Assembly: GCF_000143415.4 (NCBI RefSeq)
Contig: NW_003314270.1
Coordinates: 1,481,048 to 1,545,047, forward strand
Direction of reading: 5' to 3'
Length of the DNA: 64,000 nt
DNA from: Selaginella moellendorffii
Lineage: Eukaryota > Plantae > Lycopodiophyta
The notes beneath the pieces were generated by a model. The model was not told the origin of the DNA. It worked only from the letters and a program-made list of their open reading frames with translations, and did not search any database. Positions 2,852 through 64,000 of this stretch are shown here, piece after piece (position 1 is the first letter of the stretch; each line of letters begins with the position of its first letter). A program made the position numbers and the translations under genes.

Positions 2852-5800
2852 GCCATAGCCATGTTTGCCAACACTGCCACTGGATCGAGGCCCACAGGCC
2901 CGACCACTAAGTCCCACGGTCCTCTGGGACTTCCTCACCACTTGACTGTATCCTTAGTCACTACACTAGAGGATTACTCCTCTTCCTTTCCACAATCTGG
3001 GCCTTTGGGACAACATTTCGGAATACTGTGGCCCTACGCGGGCCTCATGGGTACTCTCCCCGCCTTCTGCCTTTGGGTGCTCTAGCCATGGGCTTAGAGC
3101 GAGGTTTTGTTGAGCCACGCCAGGTATCCAAGTAGGTAGTGCCACCCACACTTGGACTGGGAGCATCGGCCAGTCGATCTCCCAAAGAAACTAGAGTCGG
3201 CTCTTGAACACTGCACCAAGCTACCCCGCTTGTTGGTCCGTATTCACTTTAGTCTTGGACTTCCCAATGGTCAGTTCATCACCCAACACTAGGTATGGCC
3301 TTCCTAGGCCAAACTAGCCTTTCCTGGGCCAAACTAGCCTTTCCTGGGCCAAACTAGCCTTTTCTGGCCAAACTGACTCCACTGGGCTCCAACCCCCACA
3401 CTCTCCCTACTATACTTTTGGAACCCCCTACAGCCGCCCCCCCCCCCTCCCCTGCCCAAGGGACGATCGCTTTGGGCATTCACCCAACTGCTTGTATTAG
3501 TATTCAAACTCGAACTCGAACTCGGTCTCAATCCCGGTTTCGGACTCGGACTCAGACTCGGTCTCGATCTCAGTCTCAATCTCGGTCTTGGTTCCATCTC
3601 GGACTCCATCTCGGGTTTCATCTCGGACTCCATCTCGGGTCCATCTCGGACTCCATCCCGGGTCCATCTCAGACTCCATTTCGGACTCCATCTTAGACTC
3701 CATCTCGGGTCCATCTCGGACTCCATCTCGGACTCCATCTCGGACTCCATTTTGGACTCTGTCTTGGGTCTATCTCGGATCCATCTCAGACACTTCCACG
3801 TGTCATGTGTTGGTCCTTTTTGGGTCCCTTTTTGGAGCCTTGCTTATTGGTTGCCTCATGCTCGCTTGTCGAGCACTTTGTTGGGAGTTCCACTCCCGCT
3901 CTCGACCTTCTAAGTCAGAGCTTTTAGTCCAAACGTGTTACGCTCATTTGGCTTTTGCTTCAGCCACTACCATGTGGCACCCTTTCTGGCTCCACTTTGG
4001 GGCCTAGGGATTTTGTGTCTCACAAATCCACCACCCATAGACGAAGTTCGATGTCCTCATCGAACGATAAACTATTTTATAAAGTAATATCAACTTGTAT
4101 TACCATTTCCATCCTTGGCCCCTCACCAATATTCGTCAATGGTTTGATATTGAAGGCTTGCCATGCCTTGCCCATCCTCTAAGGAGGATAGTCTCTCCAA
4201 CTTAGAGACTGATTAGACCACTTGTAGTGGTTCTCTCCTTTTATTGGTTTAGTTCTCGCTAAACCTGTTAAAGATATCGTCTATATCTCAATCCTGCTAC
4301 TTCTCAAGTAGTCTCAGTTTCCATCGACATAACCTTTGCACTTTGGAACATTTACTTTTGACTTCTTGAAGTCAATTTCCTAGGTGTCTCCGACACCTTG
4401 CATTGCACATATTGTGCAAGTCCACTTCCCTATCCTAGGAAGTTTTTTACTTGAGGGCACCATCATCTTCTTTTCTGTTTTGTGCCACCCTTGGCACTAT
4501 GTTCCAATTATCATCATTTGTGCCAGAGCTGTCCACAGCCCTATCCTTTGGTTACTTTGTTGCTCCTCACATGGAACTTTTACTTTGCCAAATTGGAGCA
4601 CTTGGGAATCTATCCTTAGAAGTCCACTTCCTTTCCCGCAATCCATTAACATCAAACACATTAGTGTTCCTTGGCTAACCTTGCCATTTGGATTCCTCCC
4701 ATTAAATTCCATGGCCCAAACTTGGCCACTAGTCTTTTGCTCCTATTCATTGATTGTTGCATCAAGCAACATACCTCCCTCCTTGAGGTATTCTTTTAGT
4801 TCCATGGCAAAGCTCCACTTCACCAAGTCTAGAGGGTGCTCACCCCTAGTAGGTCTCTTTAGCAACTTCTGCAATGGGCCCCTTCCACGGCCCAACATTG
4901 TGACCCTCCCATAGGTCCTTTCTAGAGACTACTTTCTTGAACTCACAATACCATTGTATCGTCATAGTTCATTTCCCTTAGGTGTCCTTCCCACTTGGTC
5001 ATCTTGACCAAGCCACACCATTATCAATAGTTCAAATCAACGTTTTGAACTAGGAACTTTGTTCCTTAGCCTCACAAGGACCTCGTCCTTGTTTAGCCGT
5101 ACGATCACCTAGTGATTTAATCTTGACACCTTAACAAGTTTGCCAATAGGTACTAGGTCTTCTAGACCTTTAACTTGTTGACCATGACCCTGGGGGCATC
5201 CCCCACATTTGGCGGTGCACCCAAGCCAGCCCTTCTGGCCAAGGATCCATAGCAACTAAGACTGGGTGTCCCCATCTCATTCACCACGTCCTCAGTGTTA
5301 CTCGCACCAAAGTGTTCAAGTTAGATATGCTGAGCCACACTAAGCAATCTAACTGTGCATCATGACTCCGGAGCATCCCCCGCTTGGCGGTGTGCCCAAG
5401 CCAATCTCTTCACTGAGAGTCCATGACCACCGAAATATGAGTGTCCTCATATTCCAAACCATCACCACACCCTAGTGATTTGGGACTCGAACCCAAGCAC
5501 TAAAGGGTCGGGACTCGAACCCAACCTCTGTGTAAGCTCCTGAGTTTGGACTTCCCGGGAGGTCACCCAACCCAGTACTATTCAAACCCAAGGACGCTTA
5601 ACTCCAACTATCCCAAGACCCTTAACTGATTGGAAAAGGGGGTGCACTTTTATTCATAGGCCCTTTCCCTCTATATTTGAACCCCTATGGATCGTCTCTC
5701 AAGTCGTTCCCTTTGGTTGCTTACACTCTGTATATGCATCTACGGACGGCATCACCCAGGATGCCTGGCGTGACTCCCCACGCCGGTGCACCAACTTATA

Positions 5801-8800
5801 CTTAAAGCGCGCTATAGATCACAGCTTAGGAACTTAATTCCTCCACACTGCTAAGTCCTCTCACTTGACACGTTTGTGATCATGCATGGACTCCTCCACA
5901 CTTGGCCCCATGGCCCCCCTTTATGAAGTTATCACTTTCAATTAGGGTATTTGTTCCCCCGACTTGCCAATCTCGCTTGGCAAGTCCTTCAACCACCGTA
6001 ACATGGTTCTTGCATAAGCGTGAAAGTCCTTGACCATCGACTTTCATTCAAAGCCCTCTCTTTGAACACTCAGGAACTACTTCCCTTCCCAAAGACGATT
6101 CTAGGTAGCTTAGTACCTAGAAAGGCCAAGTGTAAATGGTTCATGGAACGCATGAAACCAAAGTAGCGCAGCAAAAGTGTGGTCTTGAAACTTGCCAGGA
6201 GGCAAGGCTATCAAGGTTACCTTAAAGGGACTCTATCCCTTAGCTTGCCTAGGCCTCCCTTTTTGCAAGCTTTCTAGTTGCTATATAGTCTAACATGGAC
6301 AATTCCATATTTTAGACTCTCTATAGCATCAAGGTTGCTAACAACAATACCCTCGAGCCCCCACTTGATTCTCCACTCCCAGCTGGCATAACCAACCTTG
6401 GTCATGCCCTTCGATTCCTACGGTTCGGTTCTATCCCCTTACTACTTGCTTTTGGCTTCACACCTTTCCTTCGGTCATTCTCCTCCAGACTAGGAGGATA
6501 GCTTCGCACTTTTTATCATGCTTTAGCAAGTATTCTTAGGGATGAACCTACCTGATAGCCTAAGGAGTGGTTCCTCAATCCAGGTATACTCATTTTATAA
6601 TCCCACACACCGGGATTAACGTTGTTGCTCATGGGCCTTCACTAGCCTTGCCAAAATTCCATTTTTGGTTTTATCCAATTCGGGTAGACAGTTTTCTCCC
6701 GTCTCTGCAACCTTGGACATTTGGATAGCACCTTCTATCCATCATTCGCTAAGGATTTAGTCCCTTGGGCATTATCTATTGCCCTCGCGACACTAAATAC
6801 CACCTCCTGGTGTTCCAGAGTGTTTGGGTGTCCCAATGATGGTCTCCTTGACAATGAATATTTCCTTTTACGACATTAACTCACTATATCGCAACATAAG
6901 CAATTTATCCCCTGTAAGGGTATATCTAACTTCTTTATGCCATTAAGAAGTCTTGAGTATCTATCTTCTACCTGTTTAACCAATTATCTTCACACCTCTT
7001 GCTTAGTTGCCCCATAGTTGTCAAGTCCTACAACTCATTACTTGGTGCTTCCACACCTCCATCATTATTTGGGTCACCATACTCTAACCACATGCCTTCT
7101 AGCTTAGGCCATGCCATTTCTGCTTCCGTTAGGATTCCCTTGGCAAGGGGTTCTTATGAACCCACCATCATAACCTCAAGGTATCACACCTTGGCACATT
7201 TGGTGTCTCCACACCATCAGCCCCACGAGCCTACCCTTATGACACTACTTATTAGTGTTTAGGTCTTTGCCAAGACCAATATAGTTGTTCCTCATACTAA
7301 CTATTCGTTAGCACCACACCATAGTGTTTGCACCCAACTCTGGGCCAAAGTTGCTTTCTTCTGGGAACATTTTTCCCACAACTTTAGTATAGCACATTCT
7401 GCCATCAATGAGATACCTACTGTTCTCATACTTGGATCTTATGATCCTCCCCATACCTCATAGGGCTCCATACACCTCAGTCCAAATGTTTCAACCAATC
7501 CCTTAGGATTATTCCTTAACTCTTATTTGAGTCATCTAGCTTTTTGGACTTTATCATCCGACGACCCGTGATGTCCTACTTTTGAGGTGCTAACTCACTG
7601 GAATACAACTTCTTGTATTCAGGTCCTACTCGCAAGGACCATCTTTGCAAGTGTTACTCCGACACTTGTTTTGTTCTCTTGGGGCAACCTTTTGCCCCTT
7701 AAGACCACTTATCCATGTGATGAGAATACCAATTCATCCTCTGAGTACACCCCCAACTCCTTGGGTTGTTCTAGCATTTATTAAAGGTAGCCCCAGCTAC
7801 CATTTCGAGGACTTGTGTCCTCTTCCGTATTTGACCTCCCATGGTCTTCAATTCCGGTCTCAAAGTTATGAGCACTAGCCTCAACTATATGAGGGTAATC
7901 TTATGACTCCTTTATTGTTTTGGAGTCTGCATCTTTCCCGTGATCCTAACTATAGTTGTTTACCCCAACTACATTAGCCTGTTTGCTGCGTCAAACGCTT
8001 ATCTGTATCACATCCTCAACTCTTTGAGGAAACCCTTATACTGTTCCCAAGATCCCAAAGTCGTTCCATCATTGGCCCTTTTCTATCCACCACCTTGCCT
8101 ACAAGTTCACACATGAACTGTAATGGAGAGCCATGTCTTCCCGACTTGCTACTCCTCAAGCATAAGCCCACTCCTAGGACCTTCCGATGCTAATATTAGT
8201 GGTGATATACTTCAGCACCAATAAAAGTCGGACTAAGGAACAGCTCTGATACCAAATTGTGAGCAACTAAATTTTTCCATTCTACTTTAGTCACTTAACC
8301 ACACCTCCGACCACTTGGAGGAGTCTAAATCACAACCTCTATAAGTCCTATTTCGGGCTTGGGCTTGCTAGCCCCGAGAACAGCATCCCCGCCACTCAAC
8401 CTTTGCACTAGGTCCAAGTGCTCCACTTGTCCGGTCCCATGACCGACACCCCAAGGTACCATCGACATATTAGTTTGTTACGCTAAGGCCATGCCCCTCC
8501 ACCTTAGTCACACTGGGTGTCTAACACCACCTACATCACAGTCCCATCTCTCAAGGACATGGCCATCCATCCATGAGTGATCATTCTAGATCCACTCTTT
8601 AGCATCCTTAGGAGGCCCACAAACATGGGGATTAGCCTTCCCCAATATCCTTTTTCCAGTCCCCACCAAGCCCCTTTCTGCCCATAGCCATGTTTGCCAA
8701 CATTGTCACTAGATCGAGGCCCACAGACCCGACCACTAAGTCCCACGGTCCTCTGGGACTTCCTCACCACCTGACTGTATCCTTGGGCACTACACCAGAG

Positions 8801-9723
8801 GATTACTCCTCTTCCTTTCCACAGTCTGGGCCTTTGGGACAACATTTCGGAATACCGTAGCCCTATGCGGGCCTCATGGGTACTCTCCCCGCCTTCCGCC
8901 TTTGGGTGCTCTAGCCATGGGCCTAGAGCAAGGTTCCGTTGAGCCACGCCAGGTATCCAAGTAGGTAGTGCCACCCACACTTGGACTGGGAGCATCGACC
9001 AATCGATCTCGTGGGGGAACTAGAGTCGGCTCTTGAACACTACACCAAGCTACCCCACTTGTCGGTCCATATTCACTCTAGTCTTGGACTTCCCAGTGGT
9101 CAGTTCATCACCCAACACTGGGTATGGCCTTCTTGGGCCAAACTAGCCTTTCCTATGCCAAACTGGCCTTTCCTAGCCAAACTGGCTCCATTGGGCTCTA
9201 ACCCCCACACTCTCCCTACTATACTTTTGGAACCCCCTGCAGCCCCCACCCCCGCCCCCGCCCCCTGGGGACGATCACTTTGGGCTTTCACCCAACTGCC
9301 TATATTAGTATTCGGACTCGAACTCGGGTCCATCTCGGACTCCATCCCAGACTCCGTCTCGAGTCCATCTCAGACTCCATTTCAGACTCCATCTCGGGTC
9401 CATCTTGGACTCCATCTTAGTCCATCTCAAACTCCATCTCGAACTCCATTTCAGACTCCGTCTTGGGTCTATCTCGGATCCATCTTGGACATTTCCACGT
9501 GTCATGTGTTGGTCCTTTTTGGGTCCTTTTCTGGAGCCTTGCTTATTGGTTGTCTCGTGCTCGCTCCTCGAGCATTTTGTTGGGAGTTCCACTCCCGCTC
9601 TCGACCTTCGAAGTTGGAGCTTTTAGTCTAAATGTGTTACACTCGTTTGGCTTTCGCTTCGGCCACTACCATGTGGCACCCTTTCCGGCTCCACTTTGGG
9701 GCCTAGGGATTTTGTGTCTCACA
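2852..9723 (-). mobile_element. Non-autonomous (LARD-like) LTR retrotransposon, copy 1
   Basis: 5' LTR 8258-9723 (TGTGAG...CTCACA). PBS TGGTATCAGAGC (tRNA-iMet) at 8243-8254. PPT-like ATGGGTGGTGGA at ~4027-4038. 3' LTR 2852-4024, truncated by ~430 bp. Internal region has no long ORF. Confidence 0.92.
5531..5725 (-). mobile_element. Cassandra-like solo LTR carrying a 5S rRNA-derived segment
   Basis: TGTAAGC...GCTTACA termini and CTCTG TSD (5526-5530, 5726-5730). Absent from the homologous site in copy 2 (~61876). Minus strand of 5548-5603 reads AGTTAAGCGTCCTTGGGTTTGAATAGTACTGGGTTGGGTGACCTCCCGGGAAGTCC, matching the 5S A-box/IE/C-box region. Confidence 0.9.
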
Positions 9724-29373: not shown

Positions 29374-29489
29374 GTCTAGTTCTCCGTTTCTCTGGTCAAT
29401 TTTTTTCTTCCGGGGGTCAACACCGGGTCAGCGATCGTATATATATATATATATCTTCGACTTATGGGGTCCAGACAGCAGCAGCAGCT

Positions 29490-37704: not shown

Positions 37705-37850
37705 CGATCCCTCGCCACTCCCACGAAGACCCACGAGAAAACACCAAGAAACAAAATTGGGACGCCAGTTGGCACGCATTTATTTGCTCGGCAAGGTAAA
37801 GGTTTTATTCCGGATTATCACTACTACAAGTTTAGTACTAGTCTCATGCT

Positions 37851-43500: not shown

Positions 43501-44706
43501 CTCTTCTTCCTCCTTGATTTTTGCAAGTCGCTCTTGCATTTCCCGAATATGCTTCGGGACCTTCTTGTCGACCACCTTTGGCTTCGCCTCTTGAGTTTCC
43601 GAAGGACCTTTCTTCTTTTTCTTTTTACTACTGCCAGTGGCTTCCGTCGTCTCTTCTCCTTTGGTATTATCCACAGCATCCACCTTCTCTCCTTCAACAT
43701 CTGGTACAGCCACTTCAACAGTCTCCTCGGCCTTCTTCTCCCCCTGTTTCTTCTTCTTCGACTTCTTCTTCTTGGCCCCCGTCAAGTCTAGCTTGTCTTC
43801 CTCCTCATCTGGAGCAGCAGCAGCAGGTACTTCACTATCTGGAATACCAGCTGCAGCCGCGGCCTCCGCAAGCTCTTCTTCAAAAGTTTTCTTACTGTCG
43901 TCCTGTTTCTTCTTCTTCTTCTTTTTCTTACTCAAGTCCAGCATCTCTTCCTCGTCATCAGGAGTAGCAGTAGGTTCTGGAGCAGCGACAGCTTCATCTT
44001 GAGCAGTACTAGGTACATCCCAATCTTGTGCAGCAACTTCCGGATAATCGTCGTCGAGAATCTTCTTCTTGTCCTTCTTCTTCGGTTTTTTCTTCTTTGC
44101 CGCTGTCAAGTCTAGCATCTCCTCTTCTTCGTCCGCCAGCGAGGGAATGTCCGGGGCAGTAGGAGCAACAGCAGGCTCTGGAGCAGCGACAGCTCTCGAA
44201 GAATCATCTTGAGCAGTACTAGGTACATCCCAATCTTGTGCAGCAACTTCCGGATAATCGTCGTCGAGAATCTTCTTCTTGTCCTTCTTCTTCGCTTTCT
44301 TCTTCTTCGCCGCTGTCAAGTCTAGCATCTCCTCTTCTTCGTCCACCAGCGAGGGAATGTCCGGGGCAGTAGAAGCAGGAGAAGGAGCAAGAGCATCCTC
44401 CTCCAAAATCTTGTCTTTCTTCTTCTTCGGCTTCTTCTTCTTCATGCCTGATAAATCCAGCTTCTCTTCTTCTTCCTCCTCGTCATCTCTATCTAAAGCT
44501 AATGCGGGAGCTACTAAATCATCCTTCTTCTTGTTTCTCTTGCTCTTGCTCAAATCCATCTCCATTACCAAATCCTCGTCGTTGCCGGCAGCTGCCACAA
44601 CCGAGGCTCCCGTCGTCGATCCAGCAACAGCCTCACCATCACCGTTCAACTCCTCGTTCCAATAATCGTCCAGCGATGGCGCGACCTTCTTCCCCTTCTT
44701 TCCCAT
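40524..44706 (-). CDS. eIF5B: Eukaryotic translation initiation factor 5B
   Basis: [45 protein letters not shown]. Multi-exon C-terminal half. Confidence 0.97.
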
Positions 44707-44986
44707 CGCGCGTGCGCGATGCCCTAATTTCCTAAACCCTAGCCCTAAACACTAAAGCCGACAGCGAGTAAAGGGCAAAAGCTCTCATTTCTTCTTTTTT
44801 AACTTCGTTTTTACCACATAGAATGTAAGCCCGGAGAAATAAACAAACCGCAAGAGATTTGGTGTTGTTGATTCGGGAGGCTCGTCACTGGCCATCCATC
44901 TCGACTAGCCCTTCTGCCAAGAACAAAAATTCTCTTTTTTAAGAACTATAGAAGATCAAACAAAGCCTTTGGAACTCGAGGAACAC

Positions 44987-47081
44987 TTACTCTCGAGCTT
45001 TGCGCTCGTTGTAGTCGAGTATCTGGGAACGGAGGACGTGATTCGGCCGAAGAGTTCTATCCACATTGTCTGGAGGAGGAGCTGGAGGCAGCTCGATTCC
45101 AGTGATCGGACTAGTTTTGTGCTCCCTGCTCAAACAAAAAAAAACCACTTTGGTTAAAGCTCGCGACCCGAAACAAAAGAACTTACTTCAGCCATGCTTT
45201 GATCGTCGATCGATCATACGAGTGCCCGTCAGCAGTGGTCACCGGATCCACCATAATATCACGAGTTATGCAATCCAAAAACTCCGGAGGAACGTTGTCC
45301 ACCTCGTAATCGTACTGCGGTAGCCAGCTGCTGGTGTCGAGCGAGGGTGACAGGCATATATCCTCTGGAAGCTGGATGCAAGGATCTCGCACGGTTTTCT
45401 GGGAGAACGGGCCAGGCCAGGCAAAGTCACTCGACACTGAACGTGAGACTGGCGAGAGCAGTGTCGGGGACATGACTGAATAAGTAGCATCGATGCTAGT
45501 CGGAGGTGGTAAGACGGTGGTCGATGGGAAGAACGAGGAGAAGAGGGAGGTGGAAGACGCGACTGGTTCGCTAGTCAGTGTGTTATGCTGTGGAGCAGAG
45601 ATGGGAGGAAGTACTGGAGCGGTACCTGGGAAGTAAATGGGATCGGTGGACACTGGAGTCGAGCCGCTAGCTTCTTGACAGGGAGGGGCTGCTGTTATTT
45701 CGGGTGATAGAGGTTGCGGCTTCGAACTTGTGGTTGTAGCAGCAGCAGCACTCTTTGAGAAGAATGAGCCACCATTTGCCAGTGGTTTTGGAAAAGCCTG
45801 TAAGTTAAAGTTAGCAACATCCACTGGAGAAAGATAAGAAAGCACCTCCGAGGAAGCGCTGCAGGCTTCCACTTTGGTGTTGGCTGCTCCACACAAGGCT
45901 TTGGACCAGCTCATCGAAGTCCCGGGGGGCGCCACCTCCTTAGGCGGAGCCGCACTAGTCGACTTCGCTGGCGCGTTCGTCCTAATCTTTGTCGAACTTA
46001 AGTTCTGGTGCTTTCCGAGAGGGGTTCCACCAGAGCTGGAGCTTGCTCTAGAGTTCCTATAGTCGCTGCAGTAGCTGTAACCCCTCCTCCTGCCAAAATA
46101 TCCCACCTTTTCAATCCTAGTCCGTGCCTCTTCTGTACTACTACCAGGACTACTACCACCAACACTCTTGTCGCTGGCCAACTCCTTCTCCTTGGGCGAC
46201 GCCTTAGTTTTCTCCTGCCTCTTCTTCTCAGCCTCTCTATCCCTCCTCAACTCGCGTTCCCTCTCGGCAGCGGCTTCTCTCTTACTCGCATTCTCGGCCT
46301 CAAGTAGCTCAGCACGAAGTTTGCTCCTCTCGTCTACGAGTCTCTTAAACTCCTCCCTGTCCCTCCTTTCCTCCTCCTCCTTCTTCTCCCTCTCTAGTCT
46401 CGCTAGACGCTTCTCCTCCGCCTTCCTCCTCGCCCTTCCTCTCTTCTCCTCCGTCTCGTCTATCTCCTTCGCGTTCTGCTGTCGACCCTGCGAGCCATCC
46501 CTGGAGCCATCCTGCCGGCAAAACTTCTTCCACAACCAGGCCAAAAGCTTCCCTGCCAGCTCCACCCACCTATGCACCAGATGGAAAAACCTCTGCTTGT
46601 CCAGCTCCTCCCAGAGCGATCTCCAACACGTCGAGTGGTCGATCAACTTTAAGTCCCTGGGCCGAGGATCCCCGGGGACGTGTAGCTCGGGCTTCTTCGA
46701 GGCGTGGCCACAGTTGGTGCACATATACTTGCCACTCGCCTGTGGAGTCTGGTCGCGGTAAGGACTGTGGCAATTCCGGCAGTGCTTGGTCGCCTCCTTT
46801 CGCCACCTTGCGGCCTTCTGTGCCTCTATACGCTGCCTCTCGCGGAGAAGGATCGCTCTCCTATCCCGCCACTGCGAGAGATTGGGGACGACGAACTCGT
46901 ACCAAAAGAGGCTGCTCAGAAGCACTCCCACGCATGCCAGCCTCGTGGACGTGATCTCGAAGCGGTAGCCGGGTGGCAGGAACTGCGAGAAGGCCCAAAC
47001 GATGACGAAAGGGATGATCAACCATGGTAGCATGGCGACGATGCGTCGCGAAAACTTTGCTCCAGCGCACAGTATGCACAT
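44987..47081 (-). CDS. Plant NST1-like membrane protein (At3g51640-like N-terminus) with a C-terminal U-box, 2 exons
   Basis: MCILC...LPWL.IP...RFEITS.RLAC TM region, CxxC/CxxC, coiled coil. U-box VPPEFLDCITRDIMVDPV...GHSYDR..I..WL completed by exon 44987-45125 (TSPITG...LRPNHVLRSQI). Confidence 0.85.
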
Positions 47082-47642
47082 TCTTCAGCCCAATGCGACC
47101 TGCTGAAGCCCTTCTCTATGCTCTAATCTTTCTTTTCCAGCTACAACCTGCTATAGCAACCAAAGAACCAATCAGCCGATCTGGCAAAGAGAAGAGGCGC
47201 ACAAAAAGAAATTGAGAAGAAAAGAAGCAAACTTGCAAGGGAGGCAATGCCGGTTCAAGCAGTTCAACACAGTAGCAAATCTTGGAGGGCGCCCATGGAA
47301 TCCTTACCCTAATCCCTGGCGCTATTGCTGCTGCTGATGCTACCGCGCCCTGGAATCGACACCGGCATTTCCTATGGCAGCCCCAAGAGGGCCAAATCCT
47401 CGCCCTCGTCTAGCGCGCGCCGGAGGAAACGCCCATCGCCAAGCTCCAATGCCGCGGCGCCTTCATTAGGTCTTGGTCGTGGACAACAAGCATCATTTCT
47501 CCCCAAAGCCGAAAAAAAAAAACTTGTTAAAATGGACGGCTGCCATGGCTGACACGTGTATGCCATCAGGCCGTTAAAATCAAATAGGGGTAATTTTCCT
47601 CTGTTTCTAGGGCAAAAAGAGTGAAACGAGGAGGAGCTACCG

Positions 47643-53542: not shown

Positions 53543-55557
53543 ATGAGCCGCCTTGTGCTGCTCCTGCTCGTGATAGCGCTGCTTGTGCTTGTCCAGGTGA
53601 AAGGCGCACCCGAGAGTGAATTAGTGTCGAGATTGCCCGGGCAGCCGCACGTTTCGTTTAAGCAGTACGCCGGTTACGTGACTGTTGACAAGAACGCCGG
53701 CCGTGCCTTGTTCTACTACTTCGCAGAGGCCGAAACGAGAGCCAGCTCGCAGCCTTTGACCCTCTGGCTAAATGGAGGTAACCATGCCTGTCTAGAGTTT
53801 CTTCTGCATCGTTTCTGGAACAAAAAAGAAAGCAAAACAGCATTGTCTTGTCTCAAGTCTCGACTGAGAGAAGTTTAACTTGGTTCTTACTCGATCGGCA
53901 GGTCCTGGTTGTTCCTCGATTGGTGGAGGAGCATTTACGGAGCTTGGACCCTTCTATCCCAATGCTTCTGGACAAGGGCTGTTAGTAAATCGACGAGCGT
54001 GGAACAAAGGTGCAAACCTGCATTTTCGATCGGTGCTTTAACCCCTCTTTCTTCGATCCAGTGTCCAATATGCTCTTCCTCGAAGCGCCTGCTGGAGTCG
54101 GCTGGTCCTATTCCAACAAAAGTTCCGACTATGAGCAAGTCACGGACAGGATAACAGGTAACTAGAGCTACTTAGAACATCAGAAGCTTACCTCGTGGTT
54201 GCAGCCGTGGACACGCTAAATTTTCTTCTCGGTTGGATGGACAAGTTTCCCGAGTACCAGACGAGAGATTTCTACATCACCGGCGAGAGCTACGCAGGTC
54301 CAAAGCTTTCGCCCATTTCCGACGAGCGTTCTTACAAGAGCTCTCAGTTTCCTGGTTGATACAGGGCACTACGTTCCTCAGCTGGCCGAGTTGATCATCA
54401 AGCACAGCCAAGTCCCCGGAAACTACGCTTTCAGATTGAAAGGAGTGGCCGTAAGTTAGTGAATCTAGATAGGTACGAGCTGACCTTGACGGTTGAGTCG
54501 ACTGGAGCAGATTGGCAATCCGCTCCTCAACTTGGCCGTGGATACATCAGCGATGTACGAGTACTTTTGGTCACACGGGCTCATCTCGGACGAAACATTC
54601 CAGGCGCTTTCCAACTCCTGCAAATTCGAAGACTATGAGCTCGGGCTCGCGGACCACAACGTTTCCAACGCATGCAACGACGGCATCCTCCAGTCCAACA
54701 CTGAAGTTGGAAGATTCATCAACAATTACGACGTCATACTCGACGTCTGCCTTCCATCAATCTTCTTGCAGGAAGTGAGGCTCAAGCAACAGGTAAAAGC
54801 CTCTCTGTTCCTTCTAAAACGATGAAAGAACCGTGGAAACAGATGGCTCAGAAAAGCTATGGAGTGGACATATGCATCGACAAGGAGAGGGACGTCTACT
54901 TCAACCTTCCAGAGGTGCAAAGAGAACTCCACGCGAACACAACTGGACTTCCATACTCGTGGAGTATGTGCACAGGGTAATCAAAAGAACAACGCACCAA
55001 AGTTTCGAAACTTAACGAAAAGACTTTTGCCATTTCCCGTGAAACAGGCCTGTGGACTACGCAATGCAAGACGGAAGCACAAACATGGTACCTCTTCTTG
55101 GAGACATCCTCAAAGCGGGACTCCGCGTTTGGATCTTCAGGTACGTAAGTGGAGCTAAAAAAGTTCTTCCCATTCAGAAAACGAAAGAGTTTGAAGCTTA
55201 CCGCGTGTCCTTTGTGACAGTGGAGACCAGGACTCAGTAGTCCCTTTGACAGGGACGAGATCACTCATTGGAGGCCTGGCAAAATCGCTGGGAATGCAAA
55301 CCACACAACCATACACGGCATGGTACCAAGGTGGTCAGGTATACAAAACCGTAGAGATCGATGAAAGAAAAGGAAAGAGGAGCAGAAACTGAAAAATTCC
55401 CTTGCAGGTAGCTGGATGGACTCAAAGCTATGGCAACTTGACATACGCGACAATACGAGGAGCGGCCCATATGGTTCCCTATGCCCAGCCGGAGCGCGCC
55501 TTGCTGCTCTTTCGGTCCTTCATCCGGGGAAATGCGCTGCCGATCAAGAGCGCCTAG
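53543..55557 (+). CDS. Serine carboxypeptidase-like, clade II (SCPL42-like)
   Basis: LPGQP, WLNGGPGCSS, GESYAG (Ser), SGDQDSVVP (Asp), GAAHMVP (His). Confidence 0.96.
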
Positions 55558-55643
55558 AATCACACACACACCGCATTCTTTCCAAAATGTACCTAAAGAG
55601 AATACAGAAAAAGACCTACCAGAACCCAAATTTTAAGCGAGCT

Positions 55644-55716
55644 GGTCCCATGGTGTAGTGGTTATCACGTCTGCTTTACACGCAGAAGGCCGCGAGTTCG
55701 AACCTCGCTGGGGCCA
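55644..55716 (+). tRNA. tRNA-Val(TAC)
   Basis: Full cloverleaf: acceptor GGTCCCA/TGGGGCC, anticodon arm TCTGC-TTTACAC-GCAGA, T-arm GCGAG-TTCGAAC-CTCGC. T6 terminator at 55717-55722. Confidence 0.97.
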
Positions 55717-55971
55717 TTTTTTATTTACTTGAGATGATAATAGATAAATTACTGACACAGCACATTTTATTTTGATTTTTGCAATTTTGTACTTGTTTAT
55801 CTAAATGATATACTAAACAACAACTTGGCATCTTTCCACAAGAATATCAGTGACACTATAACTAGCTTCTTATTAATTCATATATGCATGATAAATTCAA
55901 AGCAAACCAAGCTAACATAGCAAATTTTTATTTTTGCAATTTTGTACTTGTTTAACTTGTATATATATATA

Positions 55972-57521
55972 TGTGAGGGCTAAGTGTACGACTACGATGC
56001 CATATACTAATATTAGCATAGTGGGATTTTAGTAGCCGTCGGATTGGTTTCAATCTGGACCATTCGCTCCTGTATATAAGCTAGGGTTTTTGGGCTAATT
56101 AATATGCATATTTTTTATATTCCCTTTTCATATTCCAAGCACTCACATTGATGGAGATGAGGGGCACTTTTGATTGTCCCTGAGGAGTGCTTGGATTTAG
56201 GATTTTGGTTTAAATTTAACTTTTGCATTGTTTAGATCTAGCTTTTTCTATTTCCTTTCTTTTGTTCTTTTCTTTCAGGATTTTTGTTTAGATCTAGTTT
56301 TTTCCATTGTCTAGATCTTTCTAGCTTTTTGTCATTTCACTTTTTTTGCTTTTTCTTTTTCATTCGTCTCCATGGCAGATTAGCAATCTCCTCCTTTGAC
56401 CTCTAAAGCAGCAGTTGGTACAATTGTTTGATGCTATGTGCTTGCAATTGAACAACCAAACTTAGTTGATAGTGGCATTTACGGCATATGGTATAACTCC
56501 TCCTGCTTTTGGTGCCAATCCTCGTGTTCAGCTAAAGTTCTTTCGTGGGAATCCTAGAGATGATGTGTACCATTGGTTCGATCACTTCACGGTAATTGCC
56601 ACATATCATTCTTGGGATGATGCTCAACATTTGCATGAATTTCCCACGTGTCTCTAAGGGATAATGTTGCAATGGTACAATAGTTTGGGCGCAGCCACTC
56701 GTGGGGATTGGAGTGTTCTTCCAGATGTCTTCAAACACGCCTTCAGACATGCCGATGATTGTGATGATGCCTTCCAACAAATGCATTGTCTTCGCCAAGG
56801 GCCATCCGAGTCGGTGATGCAATTTGGCGTTCGTTTTCGAAGTCTTTTGCTTTATGCGGAGCCAAATATGTTGGAGCGGATCAAGCTAGGAATGTTGTGG
56901 CCAGCACTTCGTCAAGATCTTGTCGGACTTGTGCATGCATTTGCTCCTGTCGCGAATGTGACTTCAGGTATCGAAAGTTACCTGTCAGCTAGTCCTTTCG
57001 GATATTCTTACCTTACTGCCACGACGGCAGGAGGTCGGTATTGCTGGACCCTTTATCAATCCCTCTTGTGCTAGTGGAGTTAACTGGGCATTTCGAGTAT
57101 ACTTAGACCGGACGAGCATAAGGATGGAATTCCTACGTGTTATTAGCTAAGCATACTTAGCCCGGTAAGGAGTTCCCGTCTCGTTTTGTCTTGCACTTGC
57201 TAGTGACAAGAACTCTCGAGTATTGAGATTGGTCCCTCAATATCGCTGGATGATAGCTTACCGTGTTTGCCAAACACCCTCGCTATCATGCCCTTTGTGT
57301 TACTCTCATTTCGGTCCCAAATGCTATTTATGGAAAGTGTCCAGATTTCTCATTTGGCATATTTACGGAATGTAGAGATCGGCCTGAACACAATGGTGTT
57401 CGTCCCGTGTCCAAATTCGCAATCTAGGGACATTCCATATTTAGTAAGTTTTGAGCTTGTCCCAGAGACTAACTCCAGATACTAAGGGAGGCTTGGGGTG
57501 AAAGCCCAAAGCGTGTGTTCC
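55972..57521 (+). mobile_element. Degenerate Ty3/Gypsy-type LTR element (short LTR, tRNA-Ala-like PBS, disrupted gag)
   Basis: Putative 176-bp LTR 55972-56147 (TGTGAG...CTCACA, internal TATATAA) after a (TA)n tract. PBS TGATGGAGATGAGGGG at 56149-56164. gag remnants at 56466-57074 (F.G...DV..WF..F, QWY, W..L...F...F, LRQGPSESV..F..RF) with an in-frame stop. Confidence 0.75.
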
Positions 57522-60500
57522 TGTGAGACACAAAATCCCTAGGCCCCAAAGTGGAGCCAGAAAGGGTGCCACGTGGTAGTGGCTGAAGCGAGAGCCAAAC
57601 GAGCGTAACACGTTTGGACCAAAAGCTCCGACTTGAAAAGTCAAGAGCGGGAGTGGAACTCCCAACGAAGTGCTCGAGGAACGAGCACGAAGCGAGCAAA
57701 AAGCGAGGCTCCAAAAAGGGACCCAAAAGGACCAACACATGACACGTGGAAGTGTCTGAGATGGACTCGAGTTGGAGTCCGAAGTGGAGTCCGAGATGGA
57801 CTCGAGTTGGAGTCCGAAGTGGAGTCCGAGATGGACCCGAGTTGGAGTCTGAAGTGGAGTCCGAGATGGACCTGAGTTGGAGTCCGAAGTGGAGTCCGAG
57901 GTGGACCCGAGATGGACCCGAAACGGGGTCCGAGATGGAGTCCGAGATGGACCCGAAATGGAGTCCGAGATGGACACAAGATGGACCCGAAATGGAGTCC
58001 GAGATGGAGTCCGAGATGGAGTCCGAGGTGGACCCGAGATGGACCCGAAATGGAGTCCGAGATGGAGTCCGAGATGGACCCGAAATGGAGTCCGAGATGG
58101 AGTCCGAGATGGACCCGAGATGGAGTCCGAGATGGACCCGAAATGGAGTCCGAGATGGACCCGAGATGGAGTCCGAGATGGACCCGAGATGGAGTCCGAG
58201 ATGGAGTCCGAGATGGAGTCCGAGACCGGGACCGAGACCGAGACCGAGATCGGGACCGAGAACGAGACTGAGGCCGAGGCCGAGACCGAGCCCGAGCCCG
58301 AGTCCAAGTCCGAGTCCGAGTCCGAGTCCGAGTTCGAGTCTGAGAGGGTGAAAGCCCAAAGCGTTCATCTCCCAGACCCTGGGGGGTTTGGTGAGCTCCA
58401 AAAGTATAGTAGGGGGAGGACTGCAGTGGAGCCAGTTTGGCCAGGAAAGGCCAGTTTGGCCCAGGAAGGCCGGACCCAGTGTTGGGTGATGAGCTGTCCA
58501 CTGGGAAGTCCAAGACTAGAGTGAACACAGACCGACAAGCGGGGTAGCTTGGTGAAGTGTTCAAGAGCCGGCTCTAGTTCCCCCGGGAGATCGACTGGCC
58601 GATGCTCCCAGTCCAAGTGTGGGTGGCACTACCTACTTGGATACCTGGTGTGGCTCAACGGAACCCGCTCTAAGCCCCTGGCTAGAGCACCCAAGGGCAG
58701 AAGGTGAGGAGAGTACCCAGGTGGCTCGCGTAAGGCCACGGTGTTCCGAAATGTTGTCCCAAAGGCCCAGACTGTGGAAAGGAAGAGGAGCAGTCCTCTG
58801 GGGTAGTGACCAAGGACACAGTCGTGTGGTGAAGAAGTCCCAGAGGACCGTGGGACTTAGTGGTCGGGCCTGTGGGTCTCGATCCAGTGGCAGTGTTGGC
58901 AAACACGGCCAGGGGCAGAAAGGGACTTAATGGGGACTGACAGAGGGATATTGGGGAAGGCTATTCCCCTTGTCGGTGGGCATCCTAAGGATGCTAAGGA
59001 GTGGATCTGAGATGACCACTCACGGATGGTTTGCCTAGTCTTGGAGAGCCAAAATGGTGATGCAAGTGGTATTGGACTACCAGTGTGGCAAAGGTGATCG
59101 GGCATGGCCTTAGCGTAACGGGCTGCTATGTCAGTGGTACCTTTGAGTGTCGGTCATGGGATCGGACACGTGGAGCACTTGGACCAAGTGCAAATGTTGA
59201 GTGGCATGGATGCCATTCTCGGGGCTAGCAAGTCCCAAGTCCTGGATTGGACTTATAGAGGTTGCGAATGAGACTCCTCCAAGTGGTCAGAGGTGTGGTT
59301 AAGTGACTAAAGTAGAATGGAAAATTTAGTCGTTTACAATTTGGTATCGGAGCTGTTCCTTAGTCCGACTTTTATTAGTGCTCAAGTATATCACCTCTAG
59401 TGTTGGCATTGGAAGGTCCAAGGAGTGGGCCTATCCTTGAGGAGTAGCAAGTCGGGAAGACATGGCTCTCCATTACAGTTCATGTGTAAACTTGTAGACG
59501 AGGTGGTGGATAGAAAAGGGCCAATAATGGAATGACTTTGGGATCTTGGGAACAATGCAAGGTTTTCCTCATTGAGTTGAGGATGTGATCCGGATGAGCA
59601 TTTGTCTCAGCAAATTGGCTAAGGTTGTTGTGGTAAACAACTAAAGTTGGGATCACGGGAAAGATAGAGACTCCAAAACAATAAAGGAGTCACAAGATTA
59701 TCCTCATATAGTTGAGGTTGGTGCTCATGAATGTGAGACCAGAGGTAATGACCATGGGAGGTCAAATACGGAAGAGGACTCAAGTCCTTGAAATGGTAGC
59801 CGGGGCTACCTTTAATAAATGTTGGAACAACCCAAGGAGTTGGGGGGTGTACTTAGAGATGAGTGGTATTCTCATCGCATGGACAAGTAGTCCTAAGGGG
59901 CAAAAGTTGCCCCCAGAGAACAAAATCAAGTGTCGGAGTAACACTTGTGAAAATAGTCCTTTTGAGTAGGACAGGAATGCAAGAAGTGTATTCCAGTGAG
60001 CTAGTGCCTCACAAGTAAGACCTTACGGGTCTGTGGATTAACCAAGTCCAAAACTGTTGGATGACTCAAGTAGAGTCCAGGGATGGTCCTAAAAGTACTG
60101 ATGGAAGCATTTGGACTGAGGTGTGTTATACCCCACAAAGGATGGGGGGGGATCATAGGATCCAAGGATGAGAATAGAGGGTATCTCATCGATGGCAAAA
60201 TGTGCCATGCTAAAGTTATGGGAAAGGTGTTCCCAGAAGAAAACAACTTTGACACAAAGTTGTGTGTGACCTCTATGGTGCAGTGCTAACAGATGGTTGG
60301 CATGAGAAAGGGCGGTGTTGGTCTTGGCAAAGACTTAGACACAAATGGAAAGTGTCATAGAGGTAGGCTCGTGGAGCCGATGGTGTGGAGACACCAAATG
60401 TGCCAAGGTGTGATACCTTGAGGCTATGTTGGTGGGTTCATGAGAACCCCTTGCCAAAGGAATCCCAATGGAAATGGGAATGGCATAGCCTAAGCTGCAG

Positions 60501-63500
60501 AGCATGCAGTTGGAGTGTGGTGACCCAGATAATGATGGAGGTGTGAAAGCACCAAGCAATGAGTTGTAGGACTTGACAACTATGAGGCAACTAAGCAAGG
60601 GTGCAAAATAACTAGTTAAACAGGTAGAAGGTAGCTACCGAGGACTTCTTAATAGCATAGGGAAGTCGGATATACCCTTACGGGGGATAAGTTGCTTGTG
60701 TTGCGATATAGTAAGTCAATGTCATAAAAGGAAATACTCATTGTTAAGAAAGCCATCATTGGGACACCCGAACACTCTAGAACACCAGAAGGTGGTGTTT
60801 GATATCGCAAGGGCAATGGATAAAGCCCAAGGGACTAAGTCCCTAGCGAATGATGGATAGAAGGTGCTATCCAAATGTCCAAGGTTGCGGAGACAGGAGA
60901 GGACTGTCTACCCGAGTTGGACAAATCCAAAAATGGAATTTTGGCAAGGCTAGTGATGGGCATGTAAAGGCCCATAAGCAACAATGTAATCCCAGTGTGT
61001 GGGATTATAAGGTGAGCATACCCGGATTGAGGAACCACTCCCTGGGCTATTGGGTAGGTTCATCCCTAAGAATACTTGCTAAAGCATGATAGAAAGTGCA
61101 ACGCTATCCTCCTAGTCTGGAGGAGAATGACCAAAGGAAAGGTGTGAAGCCAAAAGCAAGAAGTAAGGGGATAGAACTGAACCATAGGAATCGAAGGGCA
61201 TAACCAAGGTTGGTTATGCCAGCTAGGAGTGGAGAATCAAGTGGGGGCTCAAGGGTGTTGTCGCTAGCAACTGTGATGCCATGGAGAGTCTAAAATATGG
61301 AATTGTCCATGTTAGACTAGGTGGCATTTGGAAGGCTTGCAAAAAGGGAGGCCTTAGCAAGCTGAGGGACAGAGTTCCTTCAAGGTTCCCAAAGACGATT
61401 TTAGGTAGCTTAGTACCTAGAAAGGCCAAGTGTAAATGGTTCATGGAACGCGCGAAATCAGAGTAGCGCAGCAGAAGCGTGGTCTTGAAGCTTGCCATGA
61501 GGCAAGGCTATCAAGGTTAGGGAAGTAGTTCCCGAGTGTTCAAAGAGAGGGCTTTGAACGAAAGTCGATGGTCAAGGACTTTCACGCTTATGCAGGAACT
61601 ATGTTACAGTGGTCGGAGGACTTGCCAAGCGAGATTGGCACGTCGGGGGAACAAATACCCTAGTTGAAGGTGATAACTTCAAAAAGGGTGGGCCATGGGG
61701 CTGAGCGTGGAGGAGTCCATGCATGATCACAGACATGTCAAGTGAGAGGACTTGGCAGTGTGGAGGAACTAGGTTCCTAAGCTATGATCTGTAGCGTGCT
61801 TTAAAAATAAGTTGGTGCACCGACGTGGGGAGTCATGCCAGGCATCTTGTGTGATGCCGTCCGTAGATGCATATACGAAGGTTGGGTTCGAGTCCCGACC
61901 CCCTAGTGCTTGGGTTCGAGTCCCAAATCACTAGGGCGTGGTGATGGTTTGGAATATGAGGACACTCATATTTCGGTGGTCATGGACTCTCAGTGGGGAG
62001 ACTGGTTTGGGCACACTGCCAAGCGAGGGATGCCTCGGAGTCGTGATGCACGGTTAGATTGCTTAGTGTGAAAGCTCGGCATATTTAACTTGAACGCTTT
62101 GGTGCAAGTGGCACCAAGGACGTGGTGAGTGAGATGGGGACACCTAATCTCAGTTGCTATGGACCCTTGGCCGAAAGGGCTGGCTTGGGCGCACCGCCAA
62201 GTGTGGGGGATGCCCCCGGGGTCGTAGTTAACAAGTTAAAGGTCTGGAAGACCTAGTACCTATTGGCAAACCTGTTAAGGTGCCGAGGTGAGATCACTAG
62301 GTGATCTTGTGGCTAAATAAGGACAAGGTCCTTGTTTGGGTTAAGGAATAAGATTCCTAGTTCAAAGTGTTGATTTGAACTATTGATTATAGTGTGGCTT
62401 GGTCAAGGTGACCAAGTGGGAAAAGCACCTTAGGGAAATGAGCTATGTCATTGCGATGGCATAATGTGTCCAAGGAAAGTAGTCTCTAAAGAGACCCATG
62501 AGAGGGTCACAAAAGTGGGCCGAGGATAGAGCCCACAGCAGAAGATGCTAAAAGAGACTTACTAGGGGTGAACACCCTAGTCTTGGCAAAGCAGAGCCTT
62601 TGCTATGGAATCAAAAGAATACCTCAAGGAGGGAGGTAGAGATTCGATGTTGCTTGGTGCAACAATCAACAGATAGGAGCAAAAGATGAGTGGCCAAGAT
62701 AGGGCCGTGGAATCCCTTGGAAGGAATCCAAGTGACAAAGTTAGGCGAGGAACACTAATGTGTTGGACGCTAACAAATTGCGGGAAAGGAAGTGTGTTTC
62801 CAAGAATGGATTCCGAATTGCTCCGATTTGGCAAAAGTGGAAGCTCCAAGGGAGGGAGCGGTAAGGTAGCCAAATGATAGGGCGATGGACAACCCTAGCA
62901 CAAGGTGTGATAAATGGAACTTAGTGCCCAAGGTGGCACGAAATAGAAGAGAGGATGATAGTGCCCTCAAGTAATGAACTTCCTAGGATAGGGAAGTGGA
63001 GTTGCACAATTTGTGCAATGCAAGGTGTTGGAGACACCTAGGAAATTGACTTCCAAAAGTCAAAAGAGTAAAAGTTCCAAGGTGCAAACATTCAATAGAT
63101 GGAAATTGAGACTACTCGAGAAGGAGTAGTGGGATTGACTTAGAGAAGGGTCTCTAAGAGGTTTAGCAAGAATTAAACCAATAAAAGAAGAGAACCACTA
63201 CATGTGGTCCAATAAGTCTCTAAGTTGGAGAGACTACCCTCCTTAGAGGATAGGCAAGGCATGGTGAGCCTTTGGTGTCAAACCATTGAGGCATATGCAA
63301 AAGGCATGGTGAGCCTTCAATGTCAAACCATTGACAAATATTGGCTAGGTGCCAAGGATGGAAATGGTAACACATGCGAGGGTTACTTTACAAAATGGTT
63401 TACCGTTCGATGAGGACATCGAACTTCGTCTATGGGTGGTGGAGTTGTGAGACACAAAATCCCTAGGCCCCAAAGTGGAGCCAGAAAGGGTGCCACGTGG

Positions 63501-64000
63501 TAGTGGCTGAAGTGAGAGCCAAACGAGCGTAACACGTTTGGACCAAAAGCTCCGACTTGAAAAGTCAAGAGCGGGAGTGGAACTCCCAACAAAGTGCTCG
63601 AGGAACGAGCACGAAGCGAGCAAAAAGCGAGGCTCCAAAAAGGGACCCAAAAGGACCAACACATGACACGTGGAAGTGTCCGAGATGGACCCGAGTTGGA
63701 GTCCGAAGTGGAGTCCGAGATGGACCCGAGTTGGAGTCCGAAGTGGAGTCCGAGGTGGACCCGAGATGGACCCGAAACGGAGTCCGAGATGGACACAAGA
63801 TGGACCCGAAATGGAGTCCGAGATGGAGTCCGAGATGGAGTCCGAGGTGGACCCGAGATGGAACCGAAATGGAGTCCGAGATGGAGTCTGAGATGGACCC
63901 GAAATGGAGTCCGAGATGGAGTCCGAGATGGACCCGAGATGGAGTCCGAGATGGACCCGAAATGGAGTCCGAGATGGACCCAAGATGGAGTCCGAGATGG
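57522..64000 (+). mobile_element. Non-autonomous (LARD-like) LTR retrotransposon, copy 2 (3' LTR runs off the window)
   Basis: 5' LTR 57522-59338 (TGTGAG...TTACA). PBS TGGTATCGGAGC at 59342-59353. PPT-like tract at 63432-63444. 3' LTR from 63446, nearly identical to the 5' LTR. Homologous throughout to 2852-9723 in reverse. Confidence 0.93.
57755..58345 (+). repeat. LTR-internal minisatellite (GGAGTCCGAGAT / GGACCCGAGAT 11-12-mers grading into CCGAGT/CCGAGA hexamers)
   Basis: Directly visible. Also at 63680-64000, ~3505-3790 and ~9310-9490 with different copy numbers. Confidence 0.95.

What the first reader, a model, noticed from the sequence alone, without database searches (positions are those of the whole stretch)
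59354..63445. A ~4-kb non-coding retroelement core built as a string of dozens of short, covarying hairpins
Seen: no long ORF or recognisable gag/pol, but short inverted repeats follow one another almost continuously, separated by A-rich linkers. Examples: TCCTCA-ttgagt-TGAGGA 59566, CCTCA-tatagt-TGAGG 59702, GGTAGC-cggg-GCTACC 59795, CAAGTGT-cggagta-ACACTTG 59927, GACTC-aagta-GAGTC 60063, GGGAA-aggtg-TTCCC 60220, TGGTGT-ggag-ACACCA 60381, GGCATAACC-aaggtt-GGTTATGCC 61197, AATATGAG-gaca-CTCATATT 61953, TACCTC-aaggagg-GAGGTA 62620. Against the diverged copy 1 (4025-8242, minus), many changes fall in loops or swap Watson-Crick for G-U pairs. One hairpin shows a true compensatory change: ACACA-aagt-TGTGT (60252-60265) versus GCCCA-gagt-TGGGT (revcomp of 7332-7345). 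A few hairpins are not preserved. Loops are purine-rich and often contain RAGU or GGAG. Known: LARDs have conserved non-coding internal domains, and retroviral nucleocapsid binds G-rich loops such as GGAG. Inference: selection acts on sense-strand RNA structure. This could be a multivalent array of Gag-binding/packaging hairpins that lets a parasite RNA hijack a helper's capsid while avoiding long dsRNA.
Basis: partly seen in the sequence, partly recalled or inferred. Interest (0 to 1): 0.85.

Follow-up and report, generated by a model that had tools for sequence, protein, structure and literature searches.

The report
Parasitic retrotransposon strung with short hairpins
An abundant plant jumping gene with no recognisable protein gene has a 4-kb core holding about a hundred short inverted repeats, five times what chance gives, which are predicted to fold its RNA into a string of small hairpins that likely help it get packaged and copied by a related retrotransposon's machinery.

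Summary
The hairpin array is real and extreme: 100 perfect stems of 5 bp or more against 19.7 in shuffles (z=17), 81 against 21 in the second copy, no excess in four control regions; density is 2-3.6 times that of phage MS2. The element is a LARD-type non-autonomous LTR retrotransposon (1.8-kb LTRs, iMet-type PBS, PPT, no gag/pol trace) of a land plant, in a very large family. Stems diverge less than matched controls (6.3% vs 9.9%, p=0.011), so purifying selection is likely. New lead: the last hairpin, 19 nt before the 3' LTR, recurs at the same spacing in coding chromodomain-gypsy elements elsewhere, which show a milder hairpin excess. Best reading: a chromovirus-dependent parasite that carried a lineage trait, local stem-loops on the genomic RNA, to saturation, likely for packaging. 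Function is untested; RNA reads were scarce. The scan earlier noted smaller hairpin arrays in retroelement DNA of three other genomes (unchecked).

The parts
57522..59338 (+). 5' LTR of copy 2 (1817 bp, TG...CA)
   Evidence: Repeats at 63446 and at 9723/4024 minus; 68-69 contigs per run end with unlike sequence behind 59338 in X1 and X2; sequence
57754..58348 (+). Tandem array of 12/23/35-bp units inside the LTR; the unit is itself a small inverted repeat
   Evidence: 100-nt windows fold at z -3.0 to -6.0 on the + strand
58381..58410 (+). G tract followed by a TATA-like word; promoter inferred, not tested
   Evidence: Sequence; the same word follows longer G tracts in both LTRs of copy 1
59342..59353 (+). 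Primer-binding site, initiator-Met type, 3 nt behind the LTR
   Evidence: Sequence; 11 of 12 (copy 2) and 12 of 12 (copy 1) letters match the PBS printed in PMC7215508
59354..63431 (+). Non-coding core: array of about 87-125 short hairpins (stems mostly 5-8 bp, almost purely Watson-Crick; loops 3-8 nt, 70% purine, 8% C; median linker 20 nt)
63405..63424 (+). PPT-proximal 8-bp hairpin with AGGA loop, identical in both copies, shared in sequence and 19-nt spacing with coding chromodomain-gypsy elements
63432..63445 (+). Polypurine tract (imperfect) directly before the 3' LTR
   Evidence: Sequence
63446..64000 (+). 3' LTR of copy 2, cut by the window end; 2 differences in 228 bp from the 5' LTR
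2853..9723 (-). Copy 1: 5' LTR 9723-8258, PBS 8254-8243, core 8242-4025, 3' LTR from 4024, truncated near 2853; LTRs 7.2-7.5% apart; core about 14% from copy 2
5531..5725 (-). Solo LTR with a 5S-rRNA-like segment (Cassandra-like) inserted in copy 1, 7-bp inverted ends, 5-bp target duplication; absent from copy 2
   Evidence: Rfam RF00001 E 3.7e-4, 34 bits, below the gathering score of 38; boundaries from sequence
6086..6219 (+). 134-bp segment of copy 1 inverted relative to copy 2 (61386-61519)

Best explanation
This is a high-copy, non-coding LTR retrotransposon of the LARD type whose 4.1-kb core holds about a hundred short inverted repeats, likely kept by selection as a string of small stem-loops on its genomic RNA, which likely serves in cis to get that RNA compacted and packaged by the Gag and Pol of a chromodomain-gypsy helper. 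Shown: LTR-PBS-core-PPT-LTR anatomy, no coding trace, hairpin excess, family abundance, shared terminal hairpin and spacing with coding chromoviral elements, and a 2-6-fold hairpin excess in those elements too. Inferred: transcription from the LTR, folding as beads on a string (nearly all C is locked in stems, leaving purine-rich single strands and no long duplex), dependence on a chromovirus helper, and many weak Gag contacts rather than one signal. The array would be the lineage's ordinary taste for local stem-loops carried to saturation once the coding constraint was gone, with the core also keeping the RNA near helper-genome length.
For: Anatomy. Hairpins 24.4/kb (stem>=5) and 13.0/kb (>=6) vs MS2 12.3 and 3.6, E. 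coli rRNA 5.4 and 1.6. Unbiased test: sites flanked by 2+2 Watson-Crick pairs in both copies differ at 22 of 348 (6.3%) vs 3023 of 30388 (9.9%) in controls with equally conserved neighbours, p=0.011; among the 134 of 174 focal pairs that pair in at least one copy 13 of 268 sites differ (4.9%, hand count), 7 of them Watson-Crick/G-U swaps, which is about the decay expected after insertion. Of 38 listed core variants in the family, 2 weaken a stem of this copy vs 10.5 expected, 6 pair better vs 2.8 (partly ascertainment). Pair 59410/59420 is U-A here while C (49%) and G (78%) are common in the family, unphased. 94,443 of 2,800,581 contigs of run X1 lie on this stretch. 10 of 65 metagenome matches of the terminal hairpin have a purine tract at the same 19-nt offset, 8 of them followed by TG; L060 encodes gag-PR-RT-RH-IN-SH3-chromo, has a Met-type PBS and hairpin excess in coding region (15 vs 6.4), 3' segment (6 vs 1.2) and LTR (8 vs 1.3); three related 3' segments show G-U excess 14 vs A-C 1.8, an RNA-strand sign. 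Dispersed stem-loop packaging signals are described for ssRNA viruses.
Against: No binding or packaging data. No helper found in this organism; no genome held. Beyond the 20-mer the core does not align to the chromoviral loci (best E 0.15). No shared loop motif survives control for loop composition and 15 tests, whereas packaging signals usually share one. Compensatory changes at chance level. Both strands fold about equally; G-U excess inside stems is small (10.5 vs 168 Watson-Crick), though MS2 shows the same. The simple stem-versus-loop contrast (9.6% vs 15-16%) is inflated by defining stems on one copy. Only two full copies could be compared. RNA-seq gave 10, 17 and 13 reads from 9.2 million records each, 1 of 40 at 99% or more identity.
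Confidence: 0.45

Rival explanations
1. The hairpins are selected, but for RNA survival rather than Gag binding: short stems tie up C and U so that no long duplex forms, the RNA stays compact and escapes Dicer, decay or translation surveillance.
For: Longest perfect stem 10 bp; no distant inverted repeat above 12 nt; unpaired bases 68% purine, 10% C; no fixed loop motif; excess also in LTR parts (6 vs 0.7, 13 vs 4.9). In maize, strongly folding TE regions collect siRNAs (passages), so stem length matters.
Against: The family is nearly silent in three RNA runs, so escape from silencing is not evident; an unstructured RNA would also avoid Dicer (inference).
Confidence: 0.22
2. The hairpins act during reverse transcription on both the RNA and the single-stranded cDNA (pausing, template switching, keeping strands apart), which is why stems are almost purely Watson-Crick and symmetric.
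For: Excess pairs inside stems 168 Watson-Crick, 10.5 G-U, 1.1 A-C; equal z on both strands; real loops give slightly more stable DNA hairpins than permuted loops on both strands (z -3.0, -3.2) but not RNA hairpins (z -1.5, -0.1).
Against: MS2, an RNA genome, has the same low G-U share (0.03); median DNA hairpin energy only -3.4 kcal/mol; outer flanks of copy 2 favour G-U (21) over A-C (6) against 15 and 12 expected, though copy 1 does not (14 vs 12).
Confidence: 0.17
3. The hairpins are a by-product: short-range template switching during repeated reverse transcription or DNA replication writes perfect inverted repeats, and they pile up where no reading frame forbids them; no selection on structure is needed.
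For: Perfect Watson-Crick arms; no motif; hairpins unlike each other (only 2 internal matches at E<0.05); excess highest in non-coding parts and lowest in coding parts of L060; no covariation. The mechanism is recalled from the literature, not from a call.
Against: Lower divergence of paired sites; loops keep a strong one-strand purine bias (326 of 464 letters), which loop flips would erase, and none of the 87 loop pairs read as a flip by eye; other repeats and intergenic DNA of the window show no excess.
Confidence: 0.12
4. The core is a decayed gag-pol or a degenerate satellite of one hairpin unit.
For: Small local duplications exist (62002/62180, 63256/63301, 61882-61941).
Against: 0 Pfam hits in 12 frames while the same test finds a broken gag next door (E 5.8e-8); tblastn with L060 gag-pol gives nothing below E 0.4; no tandem period across the core.
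Confidence: 0.04

Closest known systems
LARDs (large retrotransposon derivatives; type family Sukkula of barley)
   Same: [quoted passage not shown]
   Different: Seed-free-plant-like host; core is a near-continuous run of about 100 unrelated short perfect hairpins. The passages seen describe no such array; the original LARD paper was not held, so its folds could not be compared.
Plant chromoviruses with Met-type PBS (Galadriel/Galahad-like; clade assignment inferred), represented here by loci L007, L015, L019, L059, L060
   Same: Same terminal AGGA-loop hairpin 19 nt before the LTR, Met-type PBS, 770-nt non-coding segment between pol and PPT with hairpin excess. SM1-Galahad LTRs are over 1 kb with variable G tracts (PMC3350952 passages), as are these LTRs.
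   Different: They encode gag-pol and chromodomain; hairpin density 3-11/kb vs 13/kb; no alignable similarity beyond the 20-mer.
Multiple dispersed packaging signals of ssRNA viruses (MS2, STNV)
   Same: Many short stem-loops along a packaged RNA, low G-U content.
   Different: There they share a loop motif and bind a known coat protein; here no motif passed control, no partner is shown, and density is 2-3.6 times higher.
TRIMs with structured RNA: Cassandra, Helenus/Ajax, retrozymes
   Same: Non-autonomous LTR elements with conserved predicted structure.
   Different: Short, with 5S/tRNA promoters or hammerhead ribozymes in the LTRs; Rfam finds no such family in copy 2.

Membership tests
LARD | Two LTRs with TG...CA ends | tested here: met
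   57522-59338 and from 63446; 3' end of the 3' LTR lies outside the window
LARD | PBS and PPT in place | tested here: met
   59342-59353; 63432-63445, PPT imperfect
LARD | Long core (element over 4 kb) without gag/pol | tested here: met
   4.1-kb core, 0 Pfam hits in 12 of 12 frames
LARD | Core conserved across a multicopy family, not one decayed copy | tested here: met
   Two collinear copies; all 30 bins covered by tens of thousands of contigs in 3 runs of one sample and 249 of 7406 in a second sample
LARD | Target-site duplication | not testable with these tools
   Copy 2 is cut by the window end, copy 1 has a truncated 3' LTR
LARD | Mobilised in trans by an autonomous element | not testable with these tools
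   No genome held; helper inferred from a shared motif only
Sukkula family itself | Sequence similarity to Sukkula | not tested
Chromovirus (autonomous) | gag-PR-RT-RH-IN-chromodomain | tested here: not met
   works with, at most, not a member
Chromovirus-dependent element | Shared cis ends (PBS type, PPT-proximal motif) with a chromovirus | tested here: inconclusive
   Same 20-mer, 19-nt spacing and Met-type PBS as L060 family, but from another source and without wider alignment
Dispersed packaging-signal array | Many stem-loops along the RNA | tested here: met
   Predicted only
Dispersed packaging-signal array | Shared loop recognition motif | tested here: not met
   Best of 15 patterns p=0.004-0.006, none passes correction; GGAG p=0.12
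Dispersed packaging-signal array | Binding to the capsid protein | not testable with these tools
   Needs bench work
Cassandra / Helenus / retrozyme | 5S-, tRNA- or hammerhead-derived part in the LTR | tested here: not met
   No such Rfam match in 57500-64000 at E<=5; the 5S-like match in copy 1 is a separate insertion

The most novel reading that the evidence does not exclude
A satellite-RNA-like parasite inside a plant genome: the 4-kb core is an evolved scaffold of about a hundred independent stem-loops that out-competes the helper's own RNA for Gag by sheer valency, the first case of dispersed packaging signals carried to saturation in an LTR retroelement, and the cause of the family's expansion to thousands of copies. 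Similar arrays noted in euglenid-, diatom- and fungus-like DNA would make it a recurring, overlooked design.
Probability: 0.3. Interest if true: 0.85.

Novelty: new variant of a known kind. Interest (0 to 1): 0.62.

Why it matters
How non-coding LARDs are recognised by a helper, and why they keep kilobases of conserved non-coding core, is open. Here the core has a simple, countable architecture in a family with very many copies, so selection on each base pair can be measured at scale and Gag preference tested hairpin by hairpin. It also suggests that local stem-loop excess is a general, unnoticed trait of some chromoviral genomes, and gives a sequence-independent way (short-hairpin density) to find such parasites, which domain-based annotation misses.

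Tried and rejected
LTR-start pattern: 0 matches in metagenome and viral contigs; no copy of the family among the 65 loci of the second scan; no match in phages. No RNA holder listed for the core; the few RNA reads cannot show start, end or level. Rfam: only a tRNA at gathering level in the window; SCARNA18, MIR2933, STnc380 matches are far below their thresholds and rejected. Decayed gag-pol rejected. The plain stem-vs-loop divergence (p=6e-6 to 1e-11) was set aside as biased, since neutral decay from a hairpin-rich ancestor gives a similar contrast; the focal test replaces it. Loop-motif excess against linkers (GGAG p=0.002, AG p<0.001) was set aside because linkers hold imperfect stems; against loop letters it fades. 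Low G-U content as proof of a DNA-level role was rejected by the MS2 control; the rRNA control was too weak to inform. RNAalifold on four chromoviral 3' segments gave 15 of 215 pairs with a double change and a covariation term of -4.4 kcal/mol, not tested against a null and open to CpG-type double transitions. The flanking gag found no longer homolog. Nine literature searches listed no paper on such an array or on the terminal hairpin; the library lacks most subscription journals and the original LARD paper.
Full report
Setting. The window is gene-dense land-plant DNA (S-locus lectin kinase, U-box, eIF5B-like and other genes). A neighbouring oxidoreductase has its best named hit in a fern at 68% identity, with seed plants at 65% or less, so the host is probably a seed-free vascular plant; this is an inference.

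Anatomy. The finding is the core of an LTR element: 5' LTR 57522-59338 (TG...CA), 3-nt spacer, initiator-Met-type PBS 59342-59353, core to 63431, an imperfect PPT, and a 3' LTR from 63446 cut by the window end. A second copy lies at 9723-2853 on the minus strand, with a 134-bp inversion and a nested 195-bp 5S-like solo LTR with a 5-bp target duplication. Copy 2's LTRs differ at 2 of 228 sites, copy 1's at 17 of 228 and 31 of 428: copy 1 is older. The core has no stop-free stretch above 105 codons in copy 2, no Pfam family in 12 of 12 frames read with X at stops, while the same scan finds a broken gag in the flank, and no tblastn match to a chromoviral gag-pol. In public runs of the same organism the stretch attracts 94,443 of 2,800,581, 125,214 of 3,702,345 and 31,201 of 2,366,061 contigs (one sample) and 249 of 7,406 (a second sample), over all 30 bins. 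Repeats shatter into many contigs and summed depth is no copy number, but depth of 1-2 million against 112-265 for the listed diverged contigs of X1 points to thousands of copies (inference). It meets the tested LARD criteria.

The observation. Perfect stems of 5, 6 and 7 bp or more number 100, 53 and 20 against 19.7, 5.0 and 1.7 in local dinucleotide shuffles; copy 1 has 81, 53, 20; four control regions show no excess. Mean window z is -1.8 on either strand against about 0 in the flank; 550-nt pieces reach z -6.35 and -5.79. Local folding predicts 125 hairpin loops, 48% of bases paired, unpaired bases 39% A, 29% G, 10% C. Density of stems of 6 bp or more is 13.0/kb against 3.6 in MS2 and 1.6 in E. 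coli rRNA. The hairpins are not copies of one unit and there is no distant inverted repeat above 12 nt. A smaller excess runs through the LTR as well.

Selection. Stems of copy 2 differ from copy 1 at 9.6%, loops at 16.3%, linkers at 15.0%, but choosing stems that are perfect in one copy biases this. An unbiased test, which conditions only on neighbouring pairs in both copies, gives 22 of 348 differences (6.3%) against 9.9% in controls with equally conserved neighbours, p=0.011; the control was not matched for base composition. For the 134 focal pairs that pair in at least one copy the figure is 13 of 268 (4.9%, hand count), close to the 4-6% expected from decay after insertion, with 7 of 13 being Watson-Crick/G-U swaps. 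Of the 40 best-supported family variants shown (192 more were not shown), 38 lie in the core; 2 weaken a stem of this copy against 10.5 expected and 6 pair better against 2.8. This shows that the family is at least as well paired as this copy; among the 21 polymorphic places alone the deficit (2 vs 5.7) is small. So purifying selection on stems is likely but rests on two copies.

What failed. Double-sided changes number 8 (copy 2 as reference) and 2 (copy 1) against 5.6±2.2 and 4.3±2.1 in the null, and 0 of 174 focal pairs; several of the 8 sit in poorly aligned stretches. One suggestive pair, 59410/59420, is U-A here with C and G common in the family, but unphased. Loops are purine-rich (326 of 464 letters), yet GGAG (6 vs 3.4) and RAGU (7 vs 3.9) are not enriched beyond that, and none of 15 patterns survives correction. 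Strand signals are weak: G-U vs A-C 29 vs 17 (p=0.10), outer flanks 21 vs 6 in copy 2 but 14 vs 12 in copy 1. Stems are almost purely Watson-Crick, which first suggested a DNA-level role, but MS2 shows the same share. RNA evidence is thin: 10, 17 and 13 reads from 9,211,280 records in each of three runs of one study.

The helper lead. A scan for the last hairpin found 65 metagenome loci, none of this family. Ten have a purine tract ending exactly 19 nt after the motif, eight of them followed by TG, the spacing seen in both window copies. One, L060, is a broken but complete gag-PR-RT-RH-IN-SH3-chromodomain element with a Met-type PBS. It and its relatives carry a 770-nt non-coding segment between pol and PPT, bracketed by two such hairpins, with 5-6 stems of 6 bp or more against 1.2-1.6 and a G-U but not A-C excess (three related sequences pooled). 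L060 also has excess in its coding region (15 vs 6.4) and LTR (8 vs 1.3). The window core does not align to these segments. Passages of PMC6317226 say Tcn1 elements mostly lack a tRNA PBS while Galadriel occurs across vascular plants; passages of PMC3350952 describe SM1-Galahad with a Met PBS and LTRs over 1 kb with variable G tracts. A Galadriel/Galahad-like helper is therefore my guess, untested.

Mechanism. Most likely the element is transcribed from its LTR, primes with tRNA-iMet, and uses a chromovirus's Gag and Pol. Local stem-loops appear favoured along the genomes of this lineage; without a reading frame the parasite could fill its core with them. The predicted result is a compact RNA with no long duplex and many purine-rich loops, the kind of substrate proposed for dispersed packaging signals in ssRNA viruses (PMC6281560 and PMC13455556, passages). 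I give packaging 0.45, RNA survival 0.22, a reverse-transcription role on both strands 0.17, a mutational by-product 0.12, decayed coding or satellite 0.04. That the hairpins are real is near certain; that they are selected, about 0.8.

Novelty. LARDs and TRIMs are said to specify conserved RNA structures (PMC7215508, passages), and structured regions are common in maize LTR elements (10.1101/2022.10.17.512609, passages). I also saw passages of PMC10886601, 10.64898/2026.03.01.708851 and PMC2851119; none described such an array. The original LARD paper was not held and is known to me only by recall; its figures could narrow the novelty. Nine searches (listings only) showed no paper on a saturated short-hairpin core or on the terminal hairpin. 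No supplements were read. The scan's notes hold three smaller hairpin arrays in retroelement DNA of other genomes, unchecked, and nothing for this genome or its relatives. Verdict: new variant of a known kind, interest 0.62.

Noticed in passing
window 5531-5725 (-): Cassandra-like solo LTR with a 5S-like segment and 5-bp target duplication nested in copy 1: a parasite inside the parasite.
   Followed up: partly
window 59339 joined to 61636 (run X20, one 2580-nt contig): A short form lacking 2296 bases of the core including the Met-type PBS; the LTR is followed after 2 nt by TGG, as a PBS would be. Its indels (e.g. 62923) also dominate in run X4 but are absent or very rare in X1-X3, so samples may differ in their main subfamily.
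   Followed up: partly
window 61882-61941: Two tandem 28-nt units with a GGTTCGAGTCC word that resembles a tRNA T-loop/B box (resemblance recalled); both are predicted hairpin loops.
   Followed up: no
window 56560-57520 (+) and 10761-11232 (-): Both copies lie just downstream of relics of one gag-bearing repeat (65% alike over 267 bp; gag E 5.8e-8), and the flank at 57496-57514 shares 19 letters with the LTR at 58346-58364; possible insertion preference or old kinship.
   Followed up: partly
L007 5250-6040, L019 5248-6040, L060 (oriented 5251-6040), L059, L015: Chromodomain-gypsy elements carry a 770-nt non-coding segment after pol that begins and ends with the same AGGA-loop hairpin plus purine tract, like a doubled PPT region; hairpin-rich with G-U excess.
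   Followed up: partly
window 61953-61972: A second 8-bp hairpin containing the same ATGAGGACA word 1.45 kb before the terminal one, echoing the doubled motif of the chromoviral segment.
   Followed up: no
L032 / L062 (oriented 290-6050): An old LTR element with Met-type PBS and the same terminal hairpin but 0 Pfam hits in three sense frames; possibly another non-coding derivative, with only slight hairpin excess.
   Followed up: partly
window 1-836 vs 12888-13683; 834-1282 vs 23668-24126; 2214-2821 vs 11994-12654: Other repeated segments; 13700-14000 (-) is a succinyl-CoA ligase gene piece, so the first looks like a duplicated gene fragment.
   Followed up: no
window 27717-47084, 54490-54825, 55643-55717: Ordinary plant genes: FAM91, Gfo/Idh/MocA oxidoreductase, S-locus lectin kinase, eIF5B-like GTPase, U-box protein, serine carboxypeptidase, tRNA-Val(TAC).
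   Followed up: no
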